NCBI GenBank assembly: GCA_001821395.1
Contig: MHLM01000014.1
Coordinates: 174,381 to 238,380, forward strand
Reading direction: 5' to 3'
Length of the DNA: 64,000 nt
Source: Candidatus Lloydbacteria bacterium RIFCSPHIGHO2_02_FULL_50_18
Lineage (GTDB): Bacteria; Patescibacteriota; Minisyncoccia; Phycocordibacterales; UBA6899
The stretch's first letter is position 1. The number at the start of each line of letters is the position of its first letter. Positions 14,921 through 21,083 of this stretch are shown here, piece by piece. A model generated the notes under the pieces. The model made no database searches. It was given only the letters and a program-made list of their open reading frames with translations, and was not told where the DNA came from. A program made the position numbers and the translations under genes.

Positions 14921-15529
14921 TTGAAAAGGAGACCCATCATGGGGAAACTTATCACAGAGACACCGTACTCGGAGATTACTGCAACGATGGAGTTGCTCGA
15001 TTCTTTTGGTGTGTCACGGGAAGATCTGACTCGGTTCAGGAAGGCTTCGTGGGAATTGAAGACGAGGGTGGCTGGCCTCATCATCCATGGCGTCTCTCAC
15101 AGCGCCACAATATCCGTCGACTACAATATGCCTCTCAAGGCAATGATTGTCTCCGGGCTTTACGATTGGGTGAACAAGAATATCACTGAAGAACACTTCC
15201 CGATTGCGGAAAGTGGAGTGGCAAATATCACGGTTGAGCTGGTGCAGTTTGGTCGAAAGATTTTATTCGATGATGCCGTCGCCGAATTGCGTCGTCGCGA
15301 TTTACGCCCCGCAACCCTGGCCGAGCTCCTTGCGTTCGGTAATGCGTTCCCCATGGAGCAGTGTAGGTACCCTATTGTGGCGCTTGGCTCCGATGCGATC
15401 GTCGACCGCCTTCGGTACGTCGCATTTATCAGCAAAGAGGGTTCGGATCGGGTTCTCGACCTCGAGTCTACGTTCGGTTATTTTTTTGGCAACGCTCGTT
15501 TTCTTGCCGTGTGCAACAAAGATCTATGA
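14921..15529 (+). CDS. hypothetical protein, paralog A of the tandem cassette pair
   Basis: 202 aa. Shares faint motifs with the 15820 protein ('YDWVNK' vs 'YPDWVKQ'; C-terminal 'VLDLES...ARF' vs 'RLDLHW...AARF'). Confidence 0.5.
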   Translation: MKRRPIMGKLITETPYSEITATMELLDSFGVSREDLTRFRKASWELKTRVAGLIIHGVSHSATISVDYNMPLKAMIVSGLYDWVNKNITEEHFPIAESGVANITVELVQFGRKILFDDAVAELRRRDLRPATLAELLAFGNAFPMEQCRYPIVALGSDAIVDRLRYVAFISKEGSDRVLDLESTFGYFFGNARFLAVCNKDL

Positions 15530-15819: not shown

Positions 15820-16419
15820 ATGATTAGAGAAAGATTGGCGATCGCTGATGTCACTGGTGGGCAATTGAATGCCATCGTCAAAAAGATCAAAAAAGCTGGC
15901 GGAGTTGATGGCGTCCAACGCTTCTTGTCCGACGAACTCATCGTCACCGCAAAGGAAGACACCATCATCCGCATCACGCGTCCGGTCAAACCGACCTACC
16001 CCGACTGGGTGAAACAGGTGATGCACCCAGAACTAGAAGACGTGGGTCCAGGCGAGTACGATCTCGCTTCCATCGACCTATGGCTCGATGAGCGACAGAT
16101 GAAGAGTAGTGACTACATGAGACAGATGGGGCGGGTCTACGGAAGCGTTATCTACGAAGATTTCAAACACAACGACAGACTTAAAACCTGTCTCGGCCTC
16201 CGAGATGCCGAGGAGATCCAAAAGAAGGGCCCCGCCGTTTTCCGCCGATGCTTCGGCAAGAAAGCGTTGTGCTTTTGGAAGTCGGTTGTCTGCAGCACGG
16301 ATCTTAATCTCCACGTCCCGTGTATCTACGTGTTAAATGATGATGTGGTGATAAGTTGGTACCGGCTCGACCTTCACTGGTCGAGCGACGACAACCTTGC
16401 GGCGCGTTTCACAAGTTAG
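15820..16419 (+). CDS. hypothetical protein, paralog B of the tandem cassette pair
   Basis: 199 aa. Good RBS (AAGGAGAAtgat-ATG). Confidence 0.5.
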   Translation: MIRERLAIADVTGGQLNAIVKKIKKAGGVDGVQRFLSDELIVTAKEDTIIRITRPVKPTYPDWVKQVMHPELEDVGPGEYDLASIDLWLDERQMKSSDYMRQMGRVYGSVIYEDFKHNDRLKTCLGLRDAEEIQKKGPAVFRRCFGKKALCFWKSVVCSTDLNLHVPCIYVLNDDVVISWYRLDLHWSSDDNLAARFTS

Positions 16420-17369: not shown

Positions 17370-17499
17370 AAATTTGGCGTATGTGAATAAGCGCTTAAGG
17401 TTTGTATTGCGAGTATAACATGACAGGGTTATTCACATGAGTTGACAAAAGTGTCTTATCGTGAATAATTATTGCAGGTCTACCAAAAGGAGCATCGTT

Positions 17500-17709
17500 G
17501 TGAGCATTCTTACGTTCATCGAAGAGGCTGTCCGTCGTATGGAGCAAACGGGAGAAGAGTTTTGCGTATCATGCGGGCGTGGCATGGGATTTTCCGCAAT
17601 GAATACACATGTCGACCATCCCGTACGATATGAGAATGGCGCCCGCTATGTTGAGGGTAGTGGCCAAGTTTGTGGCGATTGCGCTGCAAAAGAAGACGCA
17701 AAGAAGTAA
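17500..17709 (+). CDS. small zinc-ribbon protein (two CxxC pairs)
   Basis: GTG start 7 nt after an AAAGGAG RBS. 'CVSCGRG...CGDC'. Followed by a terminator. Confidence 0.45.
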   Translation: MSILTFIEEAVRRMEQTGEEFCVSCGRGMGFSAMNTHVDHPVRYENGARYVEGSGQVCGDCAAKEDAKK

Positions 17710-18503: not shown

Positions 18504-18677
18504 GCACTTGCTCCCTTCGCCCTACGTCGTTCGCGTCGAAAACTTTTTGCTATTTTCTGACAAATAGCTCAATAGGGTTTCTTTTTGCGAAGCTGTCAAG
18601 CTAGGCATTTATCCAATCGCGCTTAGAATGGGGGGAGTTATAGTTCATTGAGAACAACTCTCTAAAGGAGAAATGGT

Positions 18678-20318
18678 ATGAGCACGAAAAAAACTGATGC
18701 TCCGCACACTGATGCGAAGCCTGAGTCAAGTGGTCATGGTTTTTGCCCGAAGTGTGGGAATGGCTGGCTCGTAAAGGACGGTCAGACCACGAACACTGGT
18801 AGTGAAAAACAGCGCTACCGATGCAGTGCATGTGCGCATAAGACAACTGCACCTTCCGCAGAACATCCTGCCGACGTAGTGACGATGCGCAGTAGTTTGC
18901 CGACGGCAAAACGCTACATCATCACCGCTGCACAAAATGCGACGCCAATTCATAGGCCGACGTGGCTATCACTTCTTTGTGCGGCAAAGTATTACGATGC
19001 CGAACTCGTTGTGATCCCCGGTCGGTATAAGAATCCGACCAGTCAGTGGACGCAAAACAATAAGGACCATGAATGGTGGGATGAGGCGGTTGTGCCATAT
19101 TTGTGCAACGGATGGATCGCGCTCAATGACCGACTGTTGATCCTTGGTGACGTGAAGGTACAGTGGGCGGCACGTCAGCCGCTTGTTGGACTGGACGCAC
19201 TCACCAAAGACAAGAGCGGCATTGTTGGCCACGGCTCTCGCGGAATGCGATCCGTTGCAACTCCGCAACACAAGCATCCCAAGATCATGATGACGACGGG
19301 AGCATGTACGGTGCGCAATTACACCGATACGAAGCAAGGCAAGCTCGGAAAGTTCGCTCACTGCCTCGGTGCTTTGATCGTTGAAGTGGACATCGATGAT
19401 GTATTTCACATCCGTCAGTTGAATGCGACCAAGCAGGGGAGTTTCATTGATCTTGATATGGAATTCACTCCCGAAGGAGCCCGTCCCGCGAAGCCCGCCC
19501 TGTCGATCTCGATGGGTGATATTCACCAGCGATGGATCTTACCTGATGTGGTCAAGGCAACCTTTACTGCACCGGATAGTCTGGTGAAGATGATCAATCC
19601 GCGTTATCTCTTTTGGCATGACACGGTTGATTTTCATTCGCGCAACCATCATCATCAAGATGATTGGATCACCAAATTCGCAAAGTGGAAATATGGGATC
19701 GAGTGTGTGCGCACTGAGGTTGAGGATGCGATACGTTTTGTGAATAAGCACACGACGCAAGGGCGCAAGTCGGTTGTCGTATCGAGCAATCATGATCGTG
19801 CGATCGCGCGGTGGTTGAAGGATGCTGATTTCCGAAATGATCCGGTGAATGCGCAGTTCTATCTCGAATGTGCGTATCGCGCAACGGAGAGTGCGCGACT
19901 GACCGAGGGCGGCGTCGCGTTTGATGACCCCTATGTGTCCTATGCACAAATGTTTGCGAAACCAAACGTGCAGTTCTTAAAGCCCGGGGAAAGCAAGGTG
20001 CTTGCTCAGGTCGAGTATGGATTCCACGGTGACATTGGTCCCAATGGTTCGCGCGGGACGACCAAGAATCTCTCCAAGCTTGGAGTGAAGGTCACGAAGG
20101 GGCACAGCCACACGGCCGAGATCATCGACGGATGCTACAGTGCCGGCAAATCGACCGGCATGCTCGAGTATGAGCATGGCGGACCGAGTAGCCACACCAA
20201 CTCCCACGTTGTGCAGTATGCCAACGGTAAGCGAGCAATTATCATCATCATCAATGGACGGTATTGCTTGAAGCGTCCAAAGAGGGTAATGGTGAAATTA
20301 TCTACGAAGCCTGTTTGA
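18678..20318 (+). CDS. zinc-ribbon / calcineurin-like metallophosphoesterase fusion protein
   Basis: 546 aa. N-terminal 'CPKCGNG...RYRCSACAHK' is a transposase-type (IS1/IS1595-like) Zn ribbon. The C-terminal roughly 270 aa carry ordered MPE motifs: 'GDIH', 'HDTVDFH', 'SNHD' (GNHD), 'GFHGD', 'GHSH' (GHxH). Strong RBS AAAGGAG. Confidence 0.6.
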   Translation: MSTKKTDAPHTDAKPESSGHGFCPKCGNGWLVKDGQTTNTGSEKQRYRCSACAHKTTAPSAEHPADVVTMRSSLPTAKRYIITAAQNATPIHRPTWLSLLCAAKYYDAELVVIPGRYKNPTSQWTQNNKDHEWWDEAVVPYLCNGWIALNDRLLILGDVKVQWAARQPLVGLDALTKDKSGIVGHGSRGMRSVATPQHKHPKIMMTTGACTVRNYTDTKQGKLGKFAHCLGALIVEVDIDDVFHIRQLNATKQGSFIDLDMEFTPEGARPAKPALSISMGDIHQRWILPDVVKATFTAPDSLVKMINPRYLFWHDTVDFHSRNHHHQDDWITKFAKWKYGIECVRTEVEDAIRFVNKHTTQGRKSVVVSSNHDRAIARWLKDADFRNDPVNAQFYLECAYRATESARLTEGGVAFDDPYVSYAQMFAKPNVQFLKPGESKVLAQVEYGFHGDIGPNGSRGTTKNLSKLGVKVTKGHSHTAEIIDGCYSAGKSTGMLEYEHGGPSSHTNSHVVQYANGKRAIIIIINGRYCLKRPKRVMVKLSTKPV

Positions 20319-20325
20319 AAGTAAT

Positions 20326-20354
20326 CCCGCGTCAATGACGCGGGGTTTTTGTTT
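20326..20354 (+). terminator. intrinsic terminator
   Basis: Stem cccgcgt/acgcggg with loop caatg, then gtttttgttt. Confidence 0.65.
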
Positions 20355-20385
20355 CACGGTGTTTAAAAACATGATATTGGGAAAT

Positions 20386-20415
20386 TTTGTAAAAAAACAC
20401 CCGCACGGGGGTGTT
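20386..20415 (-). terminator. intrinsic terminator for the ClpP-like gene
   Basis: Stem aacaccc/gggtgtt; on the minus strand it is followed by TTTTTTT. Confidence 0.6.
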
Positions 20416-21083
20416 TATTGGTATTGCGCGACTTCGTCAGCGAGTCCGATCTCAACCGCTTCTTCCGGGGTGATGAACCAGTCGAACTTCATTTTTTCTT
20501 TGAGTCGGCTACGTGACCATGGTTTTTTCCCGAGGGCTTTAGCTTTCTCATTGATCTTATAAAGGTAGATGTCCTCCATGCTCGTGTTGATACGGTCAGA
20601 TTCCTGTGCGTGTTTCTGAAAATCTTTTGAGTGTCCGTAGAAGCCGTCGTTTCCATAGTGGAGGAGCATCGTCGTGTTCGGTGCGATCACGCGCTTGTCC
20701 CCAGCTTGATAAATGACGGTTGCCGCACTCATGAGGTAGCCGTACGCTTCGATGGTGATGTGGTGTCCAGATCGTCTGATGCGGTCATAAATACCAAACA
20801 TGTGATATGCATCACCTCCCGGATTGTTGATCTCAATGGTGATGCCAGGGTCCTGTCCTTCTAGGACCGGCCATCGTTCAAGTACCGAGAGTCCGGTTGC
20901 GAGTCGTTTCCACATGTCCGCATCGACGCCGGATTCACCGGAGTCAATGTCTACGGTGGCGCTTGCGAGAATGATCCGCCTTGTCGCGGGATTCACTCCA
21001 TATTCAAAAAAGAGTTTCAGCTCATCATCTTTTGTGAGCGGCTTATTAAGAGACTTAGCGAGCGGTTTGCGTCGTTCTGTCAT
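20415..21083 (-). CDS. ClpP-family serine protease (S14), stand-alone
   Basis: 222 aa. 'INNPGGD', 'GYLMSAATVIY' (catalytic Ser), 'MLLHYGN' (His), C-terminal 'ITPEEAVEIGLADEV'. N-terminal extension is atypical. No clpX adjacent. Confidence 0.7.
   Translation of the reverse strand: MTERRKPLAKSLNKPLTKDDELKLFFEYGVNPATRRIILASATVDIDSGESGVDADMWKRLATGLSVLERWPVLEGQDPGITIEINNPGGDAYHMFGIYDRIRRSGHHITIEAYGYLMSAATVIYQAGDKRVIAPNTTMLLHYGNDGFYGHSKDFQKHAQESDRINTSMEDIYLYKINEKAKALGKKPWSRSRLKEKMKFDWFITPEEAVEIGLADEVAQYQ

What the first reader, a model, noticed from the sequence alone, without database searches (positions are those of the whole stretch)
18678..20318. Unusual fusion of a transposase-type zinc ribbon with a calcineurin-like metallophosphoesterase
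The 546-aa protein starts with 'CPKCGNGWLVKDGQTTNTGSEKQRYRCSACAHK', a C4 ribbon of the kind found at the N-terminus of IS1/IS1595 transposases and some phage proteins. The C-terminal roughly 270 aa carry the ordered MPE motifs GD-I-H, (H)D-T-V-D, S-N-H-D (GNHD), G-F-H-G-D and G-H-S-H (GHxH), consistent with an Mre11/SbcD-like or phosphodiesterase nuclease. A roughly 230-aa middle region has no recognisable family. It has its own RBS and terminator and sits next to a stand-alone ClpP-like protease on the opposite strand. I do not recognise this architecture as a described family. It could be a nucleic-acid-targeting effector (defense or mobile-element derived) or a repair nuclease.
Basis: partly seen in the sequence, partly recalled or inferred. 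Interest (0 to 1): 0.6.

Follow-up and report, generated by a model that had tools for sequence, protein, structure and literature searches.

The report
Phage T5 A1-type nuclease kept by bacterium
This gene is a zinc-ribbon-bearing relative of phage T5's A1 protein (needed for T5 to destroy its host's DNA) that an ultra-small CPR bacterium keeps intact in its own chromosome, often next to a protease gene.

Summary

Two points are new. First, the window is a CPR (Parcubacteria-type) chromosome. The gene sits alone among housekeeping genes, holds the same slot in related genomes, and is under strong purifying selection (dN/dS about 0.08). It is a domesticated phage nuclease, mis-named "IS1 family transposase" in databases. 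Second, in 26 of 123 sampled loci the A1-like gene has a ClpP-like or HslV-family peptidase within 1.5 kb. In one syntenic CPR genome an HslV-family gene replaces the ClpP-like one.

Nuclease activity, cellular role and the protease link are inferred, not shown.

The parts
18602..18629 (+). Sigma-70-like promoter candidate (TAGGCA-16-TAGAAT) upstream of the A1-like gene
   Evidence: Consensus scan. It is a weak match (9 of 12), and CPR promoters are not well defined.
18665..18670 (+). Shine-Dalgarno AAGGAG, 7 nt before the ATG
   Evidence: Read directly from the sequence.
18678..20318 (+). A1-like gene, 546 aa: a T5 A1-family tandem metallophosphoesterase with an N-terminal zinc ribbon
   Evidence: ORF. 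PHROG 1745 E 7.7e-147. tblastn to 1132 phage records. T5-like A1 matches it reciprocally at 33% over 461 aa, E 2e-63. AF2 pLDDT 91.3.
18738..18845 (+). C4 zinc ribbon (aa 21-56; C23, C26, C49, C52), the variable N-terminal module of the family
   Evidence: pLDDT is 92-96. Other family members have an HTH-like module, a short 'HDP' module or nothing here.
18900..19502 (+). N-terminal non-canonical MPE-fold domain (aa ~75-275). It holds the family's most conserved motifs, TAAQNATP and RYKNPTS, at the topological positions of MPE motifs I and II, and lacks the canonical Asp ligands.
19503..20267 (+). C-terminal catalytic MPE domain (aa ~276-530) with motifs I-V intact
20323..20357 (+). Intrinsic terminator-like hairpin plus T-run ending the A1-like transcription unit
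   Evidence: (11-bp stem, 7 GC pairs, TTTTGTTT tail).
20385..20416 (-). Hairpin plus T-run on the minus strand that ends the ClpP-like gene
   Evidence: Read directly. The reverse complement is ACACCCCCGTGCGGGTGT followed by TTTTTTT. The scan lists only the plus-strand form of this hairpin.
20415..21083 (-). Divergent ClpP-family serine peptidase (222 aa), the recurrent partner of A1-like genes
   Evidence: Pfam CLP_protease 3e-22. It falls far below the NCBIfam ClpP equivalog cutoffs. Ser119 and His142 are invariant. It aligns over its full length with the virus-encoded A1-adjacent copy at 77 bits, against at most 50 bits to any solved ClpP.

Best explanation
The gene encodes a member of the phage T5 A1 family. 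It is a cytoplasmic protein of four parts: (1) a C4 zinc ribbon; (2) a short linker; (3) a non-canonical MPE-fold domain that lacks the usual Asp ligands but has an invariant polar pocket; (4) a canonical two-metal MPE domain of the DP1/Mre11/SbcD nuclease type.

By homology to T5 A1, the most likely activity is metal-dependent hydrolysis of DNA phosphodiester bonds by the C-terminal domain. The two MPE folds would form an intramolecular pseudo-dimer. The N-terminal ribbon, which in other members is an HTH or is absent, and in T5 may be supplied in trans by A2, would act as a nucleic-acid or partner-binding module.

This copy is not in a phage. It is a phage-derived gene fixed in the chromosome of a Parcubacteria-type CPR bacterium, transcribed on its own and kept under strong purifying selection. 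It is frequently accompanied by a dedicated ClpP-like (elsewhere HslV-like) peptidase.

Shown here: family membership, fold, conserved active site, chromosomal synteny, purifying selection and protease linkage. Inferred: the DNase activity, which has not been shown in vitro even for T5 A1; the ribbon's role; and the cellular function. I favour breakdown of foreign or imported DNA, with the peptidase controlling the nuclease.
For: Family: PHROG 1745 at E 7.7e-147 over aa 66-529. There are 1132 phage records, 1084 of them covering at least 80% of the query and many annotated A1 / DNA transfer protein. The reciprocal hit from T5-like A1 has E 2e-63.

Known function of the family: T5 A1 is a predicted metallophosphatase, essential, toxic, and necessary and sufficient for chromosome degradation in vivo (bioRxiv 10.64898/2026.04.02.716235).

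Chromosomal and vertical: the identical gene lies on CPR contigs up to 0.2-1 Mb between EngB and Trx/DsbD, with no phage genes within 10 kb either side. The same slot is used in L007, L008, L010, L014 and L132. Other copies sit among UvrB, LysRS, Pth and MreB.

Selection: dN/dS is 0.081 against L132 (dS 0.58), 0.083 against L007 and 0.071 against L010, comparable to SufC, EngB and DsbA.

Phage origin: the CPR copies cluster together, and their nearest relatives are viral contigs L051-L055. One of these is a genuine phage contig with terminase, portal, major capsid protein (MCP) and lysozyme.

Protease partner.
Against: No nuclease activity has been demonstrated in vitro for any A1-family protein, and A1 might instead activate a host nuclease. 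Pfam Metallophos (PF00149) does not match the sequence at E <= 0.1, and no PDB sequence relative exists, so the fold assignment rests on AF2 models. A DNase that degrades chromosomes should be toxic to its owner, and nothing here shows how the CPR cell tolerates it. The protease partner is absent next to the closest relative (L132). T5's partners A2 and Dmp have no counterpart in the window or the loci. The tree is an unbootstrapped NJ tree, and L050 (52% identical, taxon not established) may be a separate acquisition.
Confidence: 0.7

Rival explanations
1. Anti-phage defence or abortive-infection module. The nuclease is a toxin held in check, or activated, by the adjacent ClpP-like/HslV-like peptidase. 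On infection it destroys phage DNA, cell DNA or both.
For: The T5 homolog is toxic and degrades chromosomes. The nuclease is recurrently paired with a peptidase. It is patchy and lineage-restricted in CPR: 39 loci in 185,579 species genomes by motif scan. MPE domains do occur in defence effectors such as Metis MisA.
Against: There are no PADLOC hits for either gene. No defence genes lie in any inspected neighbourhood, only housekeeping genes. The syntenic, slowly evolving, single-copy behaviour is unlike typical defence-island cargo. The same gene pair occurs inside lytic-looking phage contigs next to a dNMP kinase and an endolysin, which points to an offensive role there.
Confidence: 0.2
2. 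Not a DNase. The MPE domain acts as a phosphatase or phosphodiesterase on nucleotides or another small molecule, or the protein only recruits or activates another nuclease.
Against: The best structural matches are nucleases: DP1 3'-5' exonuclease, SbcD and Mre11. A1 alone suffices for chromosome loss in E. coli. The N-terminal modules are of nucleic-acid-binding types, zinc ribbon or HTH.
Confidence: 0.15
3. DNA-repair nuclease: a functional analogue of Mre11/SbcD or a proofreading exonuclease recruited to the CPR replication and repair machinery.
For: Fold similarity to DP1, SbcD, Mre11 and polymerase B-subunits. One copy lies near uvrA/uvrB (L048). The gene is chromosomal and conserved.
Against: No SbcC/Rad50 or polymerase partner gene is adjacent in any locus. 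There is no Mre11 capping domain or DP1 OB domain, because the second domain is another MPE fold. The family is overwhelmingly viral and rare among bacterial genomes.
Confidence: 0.08
4. Decaying prophage remnant with no current function.
For: The gene is of phage origin. It is isolated from any other phage gene except possibly the ClpP-like one.
Against: dN/dS is about 0.08 with unsaturated dS against L132. The ORF is intact and the catalytic residues are invariant across the CPR clade. It holds a conserved position across genomes whose housekeeping neighbours have diverged to 61-87% identity. It has its own RBS and terminator.
Confidence: 0.03
5. IS1-family transposase, as several database records name close homologs.
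For: NCBI names P0033, P0038, P0043 and P0059 'IS1 family transposase'. The N-terminal ribbon resembles the InsA / IS1-IS1595 ribbon.
Against: NCBIfam transpos_IS1 scores 17.5 bits against a cutoff of 100 and covers only aa 23-58. There is no DDE domain, and the rest of the protein is two MPE folds. No terminal inverted repeats or target duplications flank the gene. It is single-copy in the window and syntenic across genomes.
Confidence: 0.01

Closest known systems
Bacteriophage T5 A1 protein (PHROG 1745, 'DNA transfer protein'; pre-early gene A1)
   Same: Homologous over aa ~74-529: 33% identity to T5-like A1 and 40% to Xanthomonas phage Xoo-sp13 A1. It has the same two-domain body, the same invariant MPE ligands and the same invariant N-domain residues.
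   Different: T5 A1 has a ~95-aa N-terminus without a zinc ribbon. It lies in the first-step-transfer region beside A2 and dmp and acts during lytic infection. The window protein has a C4 ribbon and no A2/Dmp partner. It is a chromosomal, vertically inherited gene of a CPR bacterium.
Archaeal PolD small subunit DP1 and the eukaryotic polymerase B-subunits
   Different: DP1 and the B-subunits pair the PDE domain with an OB fold and a polymerase partner. Here the second domain is another MPE fold and no polymerase partner is nearby. Sequence identity is only about 14%.
Mre11 / SbcD nucleases
   Different: There is no capping domain and no Rad50/SbcC gene adjacent. One of the two MPE folds lacks the canonical ligands.
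Vps29 and small YfcE/MJ0936-type phosphodiesterases
   Different: The A1 N-domain has its own invariant polar constellation (Q86, N87, H92, Y117, N119, H185, H228, E236, R246). It is fused to an active MPE domain.
InsA / IS1-IS1595 N-terminal zinc ribbon
   Same: CxxC-x22-CxxC ribbon with sub-threshold profile matches. PF03811 is precomputed for 8 homologs.
   Different: No transposase domain follows it. Here it is one of several interchangeable N-terminal modules of a nuclease family.
ClpP and ClpP-like phage prohead proteases (for the neighbouring gene)
   Same: ClpP fold family with the Ser-His catalytic residues conserved. The best PHROG hits are head-maturation proteases.
   Different: It falls far below the ClpP equivalog cutoffs and has an extra N-terminal segment shared only with A1-adjacent copies. 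In viral contig L099 it lies between the A1-like gene and a dNMP kinase, not in a head module.

Membership tests
Phage T5 A1 family (PHROG 1745) | Significant, near full-length match to the family profile | tested here: met
   E 7.7e-147, protein aa 66-529 against profile positions 79-539 of 542.
Phage T5 A1 family (PHROG 1745) | Reciprocal similarity to A1 of T5-like phages | tested here: met
   AKFV33 A1 hits only this ORF in the window: 32.8% over 461 aa, E 2e-63. tblastn from the window protein gives E 5e-59.
Phage T5 A1 family (PHROG 1745) | Family-wide invariant residues in both domains | tested here: met
   Alignment with six cultured-phage A1s: Q86, N87, H92, Y117, N119, H185, H228, E236, R246, D281, H283, D315, N371, H372, H450, H476 and H478 are invariant.
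Phage T5 A1 family (PHROG 1745) | Phage genomic context (pre-early region with A2 and dmp in Demerecviridae) | tested here: not met
   Housekeeping CPR context. No A2 or Dmp homolog in the window or in any locus. This feature describes T5-like phages only; other phages also lack it.
Phage T5 A1 family (PHROG 1745) | Causes degradation of cellular DNA when expressed | not testable with these tools
   Shown for T5 A1 only.
Calcineurin-like metallophosphoesterase superfamily | Match to Pfam Metallophos (PF00149) or related HMMs | tested here: not met
   No MPE family at E <= 0.1 in Pfam or NCBIfam.
Calcineurin-like metallophosphoesterase superfamily | Ordered motifs DxH / GDxxD / GNH[DE] / H / GHxH | tested here: met
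   GD281IH283, HD315TVD318, SN371H372D, H450, GH476SH478, all invariant across 94 homologs.
Calcineurin-like metallophosphoesterase superfamily | Four-layer alpha/beta MPE fold | tested here: met
Mre11/SbcD | MPE nuclease domain plus capping domain, with a Rad50/SbcC partner | tested here: not met
PolD DP1 / polymerase B-subunit | OB-fold domain N-terminal to the PDE domain, and association with a polymerase catalytic subunit | tested here: not met
   The N-terminal domain matches MPE folds, not OB folds. No polymerase gene is nearby.
IS1 / IS1595 transposase | Zinc ribbon followed by HTH and a DDE transposase domain, with terminal inverted repeats | tested here: not met
   Only the ribbon matches: transpos_IS1 scores 17.5 bits against a cutoff of 100, covering aa 23-58. 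The body is two MPE folds. No flanking IRs.
InsA-type zinc ribbon domain | CxxC...CxxC ribbon matching PF03811 / NF050000 | tested here: inconclusive
   Sub-threshold for this protein: 23.7 bits against a cutoff of 28, and 16.3 against 26.1. The cysteines are conserved, and PF03811 is on record for 8 homologs.
Known anti-phage defence systems (PADLOC-DB 2.0) | Match to any defence-protein model, or a defence-island context | tested here: not met
   No hits for the gene or its neighbours. Neighbourhoods are housekeeping.
Housekeeping ClpP (for the neighbour at 20415-21083) | Reaches the NCBIfam ClpP equivalog cutoffs | tested here: not met
   Best ClpP models score 39-63 bits against cutoffs of 228-361. 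It does reach the Pfam CLP_protease domain cutoff, 79.8 against 20.2.

The most novel reading that the evidence does not exclude
A1-family nucleases and a dedicated chambered-protease homolog form a conserved two-gene module. The protease is ClpP-like in some lineages and HslV-like in others. The module arose in phages and was captured and kept by CPR bacteria. The peptidase would activate, time-limit or remove the nuclease. That could be the missing explanation for how A1-type enzymes destroy one genome while sparing another. In CPR cells, which are generally held to lack nucleotide biosynthesis (my own knowledge, not tested here), the module may digest imported or invading DNA.
Probability: 0.3. 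Interest if true: 0.75.

Novelty: new variant of a known kind. Interest (0 to 1): 0.55.

Why it matters
T5 A1 has been a puzzle for decades. It is required for host-DNA destruction and for second-step DNA transfer, yet its biochemistry, and the way T5 DNA escapes it, remain unknown. This analysis gives three concrete handles.

1. A predicted tandem-MPE architecture with an invariant second pocket.
2. Interchangeable N-terminal DNA-binding-type modules: zinc ribbon, HTH or none.
3. A recurrent peptidase partner from two unrelated folds.

It also shows that a gene whose T5 homolog is toxic and degrades the E. coli chromosome has been domesticated and conserved in a lineage of ultra-small CPR bacteria. 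That is a possible clue to how these organisms process foreign DNA. Finally, it corrects a database annotation ("IS1 family transposase") that is propagating through CPR genomes.

Tried and rejected
- PDB sequence search of the protein found no relative. The only hit was at E 0.73 to a ClpC N-domain, which is noise.
- Pfam and NCBIfam gave no MPE hit. PADLOC gave nothing.
- I searched for T5 A2, Dmp and the small pre-early proteins in the window and all loci and found none.
- I looked for transposon or integration signatures. There are no meaningful flanking repeats, and the only tRNA is 26 kb away.
- I checked whether cultured phages pair A1 with a peptidase. T5-like, Xoo-sp13, Atu_ph03, BL57, phiST and R5C do not.
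- The apparent A1-HslV fusion ORF in L083 comes from a 17-nt deletion relative to L073 and may be an artefact, so I did not use it as evidence.
- My first ClpP-like HMM scores above 200 bits are partly circular, because the hits were in the training alignment. I therefore relied on pairwise BLASTP and on positional statistics.
- Literature searches found no paper that links the A1 family to CPR bacteria or to ClpP/HslV-type peptidases.
- An early mis-numbering of the second cysteine pair (48/51) was corrected to 49/52.
Full report
**Observation.** It has an AAGGAG Shine-Dalgarno at 18665-18670 and a hairpin with a T-run at 20323-20357. A 222-aa ClpP-family gene lies convergent to it at 20415-21083 (Pfam CLP_protease 3e-22). 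The N-terminal CxxC-x22-CxxC (C23, C26, C49, C52) is conserved: 73 of the 84 aligned homologs that have an N-terminal region keep all four cysteines. AF2 models the segment as beta-hairpins with pLDDT 92-96. Its matches to IS1/IS1595/InsA ribbons are sub-threshold.

**What family it is.** Pfam, NCBIfam, PADLOC and a PDB sequence search give nothing for the body of the protein. PHROGs, however, matches residues 66-529 to phrog_1745, 'DNA transfer protein', at E 7.7e-147. tblastn finds 1132 phage records, 1084 of them covering at least 80% of the query, and many are annotated A1 or DNA transfer protein. This is the A1 protein of phage T5. A T5-like A1 (AKFV33) hits only this ORF in the window, at 33% identity over 461 aa, E 2e-63. 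[quoted passage not shown] In-vitro nuclease activity remains untested (10.64898/2026.04.02.716235). Older work links A1 to second-step DNA transfer, to the DNA-binding protein A2 and to membranes (10.1101/866236), and the 2026 preprint adds an interaction with the host RNA polymerase. An exhaustive profile search finds 2,460 family representatives at 50% identity among 1.84 billion proteins. The family is mid-sized and virus-dominated. It is neither undescribed nor a ubiquitous housekeeping family.

**Architecture.** A full-length AF2 model built on 94 homologs is confident (pLDDT 91.3, pTM 0.88).
- Foldseek's best PDB hit is the PolD small subunit DP1, followed by other MPEs.

A1 proteins are therefore predicted tandem MPEs. 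The first copy lacks the canonical Asp ligands. By secondary-structure order, its motif I and II positions carry the family's two most conserved motifs, TAAQN87ATP and R116-Y-K-N-P-T-S. The residues Q86, N87, H92, Y117, N119, H185, H228, E236 and R246 are invariant even in T5-like, Xoo-sp13, Atu_ph03, phiST and R5C A1s. What this pocket does is unknown. A phosphate-binding, DNA-binding or regulatory site is plausible (inference).

**The zinc ribbon is a variable module, not a unique fusion.** T5-like A1 and Xoo-sp13 A1 have ~95-105-aa N-termini without a ribbon, and the Xoo-sp13 one looks HTH-like. In IMG/VR, 368 relatives were found. Of the 103 non-redundant sequences I classified, 66 carry a ribbon (46 of the 64 viral ones), 11 have a short 'HDP' N-terminus, 10 have none and 16 have other, often HTH-like, N-termini. 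One ribbon-bearing relative (P0090, 53% identical) lies on a clear phage contig with a terminase, SU10-type portal and major capsid protein (MCP), a lysozyme and a primase-polymerase. Because the alternatives are nucleic-acid-binding types, and T5 uses a separate DNA-binding partner (A2), I infer that the ribbon is a DNA-binding or partner-binding module.

**Where this copy lives.** The identical protein is on record from CPR contigs, including NCBI GCA_001818945.1. Close homologs come from Lloydbacteria, Kaiserbacteria, Paceibacterota and Parcubacteria MAGs, and several are named 'IS1 family transposase'. Within 10 kb on each side there are only housekeeping-type genes and genes without a family match: Suf Fe-S assembly, DsbA, EngB, thioredoxin, DsbD-like, Nudix and response regulators. 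None is a recognisable phage gene.
- The order EngB, then A1-like, then (peptidase), then Trx-DsbD recurs in L007, L010 and L014; L008 and L132 share only the part up to the A1-like gene. The A1-like identity (69-93%) is similar to that of the neighbours.
- More distant copies sit alone among UvrB/TGT, LysRS/Pth/GreA/MreB or peptidase/PAS-kinase genes.
- dN/dS is 0.081 against L132 (dS 0.58, unsaturated), 0.083 against L007 and 0.071 against L010, within the range of SufC, EngB and DsbA.
- No repeats or tRNA mark an insertion.
- In an NJ tree the CPR copies cluster together, and their nearest relatives are viral contigs L051-L055. The tree has no bootstrap, and L050 may be a separate event.

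This is a domesticated phage gene. It is not a prophage remnant, a transposase or a defence-island gene.

**The protease partner (unexpected).** The window's ClpP-like protein keeps the catalytic Ser119 and His142. It falls far below the ClpP equivalog cutoffs. It aligns over its full length, including an N-terminal extension that canonical ClpP lacks, with copies encoded next to A1-like genes in CPR locus L046 (91 bits) and viral contig L099 (77 bits). It scores at most 50 bits against any solved ClpP. In L099 the gene order is tail genes, endolysin, A1-like, ClpP-like (overlapping), dNMP kinase, spanin and then a helicase, so the ClpP-like gene there is not in a head-assembly module.

Clustering the genes within three positions of A1-like genes revealed a second recurrent neighbour, the HslV-family peptidase phrog_1040 (E 5.9e-38). 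In L007, which is syntenic with the window, the slot and strand that hold the ClpP-like gene hold a phrog_1040 gene instead (E 4.5e-16).

Across 123 unique loci, 17 have an HslV-family gene and 9 a ClpP-like gene within 1.5 kb of the A1-like gene. Of all such genes found anywhere in the 8-10 kb flanks, 26 of 28 lie in that 1.5 kb. In the viral loci they are almost always on the same strand and abutting or overlapping the A1-like gene, for example the GTGA stop/start overlap in L073; the CPR copies lie on the opposite strand. The six cultured phages I sampled lack the pairing, as does L132, so the partner is frequent but not obligatory. Two unrelated peptidase folds in the same position argue for a functional coupling, but its nature is unknown. 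Other recurrent viral neighbours are a dNMP kinase, a dATP/dGTP pyrophosphohydrolase, a DarB-like giant protein and an endolysin. These fit a host-takeover and nucleotide-pool context.

**Mechanism and rivals.** The best-supported reading is a metal-dependent DNase of the T5 A1 type whose catalytic MPE domain cuts DNA. The non-canonical MPE domain and the ribbon would contribute substrate or partner binding, and a dedicated peptidase would often accompany it. In this CPR genome it is a conserved cellular gene. I favour a role in degrading foreign or imported DNA, but that is inference. The rivals are a defence or abortive-infection module (0.2), a non-nuclease phosphodiesterase or activator (0.15), a repair nuclease (0.08), a dead remnant (0.03) and a transposase (0.01). 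The main unresolved problem is how the cell tolerates the enzyme. The same question is open for T5 itself.

**Verdict.** The protein is a new variant of a known kind: the T5 A1 family, here with a zinc ribbon and chromosomally domesticated in CPR bacteria. Two by-products deserve follow-up, the tandem-MPE prediction and the nuclease-peptidase linkage.

Noticed in passing
L007:12060-12659 (-): In a Lloydbacteria genome syntenic with the window, the position and strand that hold the ClpP-like gene hold an HslV-family peptidase gene instead. It matches phrog_1040 at E 4.5e-16 and starts MTCIAAV..., which fits a Thr1 nucleophile. This is a non-orthologous protease replacement next to the A1-like gene.
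   Followed up: partly
Viral loci L022, L027, L031, L061, L064, L065, L071, L073, L083, L093, L103, L107, L113, L116, L121, L129: An HslV-family peptidase gene (phrog_1040) lies immediately next to the A1-like gene on the same strand, upstream or downstream, often with overlapping stop and start codons.
   Followed up: partly
L083:8007-10016 compared with L073:9440-9640: The A1-like and HslV-like genes read as one 669-aa ORF in L083 because of a 17-nt deletion relative to the near-identical L073. This could be a natural fusion or an assembly artefact.
   Followed up: partly
Proteins P0033, P0038, P0043, P0059: NCBI names these close CPR homologs 'IS1 family transposase', evidently from the N-terminal ribbon alone. 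JGI names others DUF1610, TFIIB or SprT. All of these are mis-annotations of A1-family proteins.
   Followed up: yes
window 14921-15529 and 15820-16419 (+): Two ORFs of 202 and 199 aa lie between the Suf cluster and DsbA. They have no Pfam, PHROG, NCBIfam or PADLOC match and no counterpart in any related locus. L132 has an unrelated 628-aa gene there. This is a variable slot in an otherwise syntenic region.
   Followed up: partly
window 17461-17709 (+): A small 82-aa cysteine-rich ORF (CxxC...CxxC) lies upstream of EngB. It is conserved at 48-55% identity in L007, L008 and L010 and is probably a small zinc-binding protein of unknown function.
   Followed up: no
Proteins P0122, P0125, P0142, P0163: These A1-family representatives are 828-898 aa long and match the profile in two stretches, with roughly 300 extra residues near the C-terminal motifs. 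This could be an inserted domain or an intein.
   Followed up: no
L136:2369-2749 (Cellulophaga phage phiST): A gene annotated as a DNA-binding protein (Pfam PF00216 in the record's note) ends exactly where the A1-like gene starts. This is reminiscent of T5's separate DNA-binding partner A2 and fits the idea that ribbon or HTH fusions supply that function in cis.
   Followed up: no
L099:10178-10735, L032:8826-9557 and 8 further loci; L075:10125-10754 and 11 further loci: A dNMP kinase (phrog_139) and a dATP/dGTP pyrophosphohydrolase (PF18909) recur within one to three genes of viral A1-like genes. A DarB-like giant protein lies directly upstream in 12 loci.
   Followed up: partly
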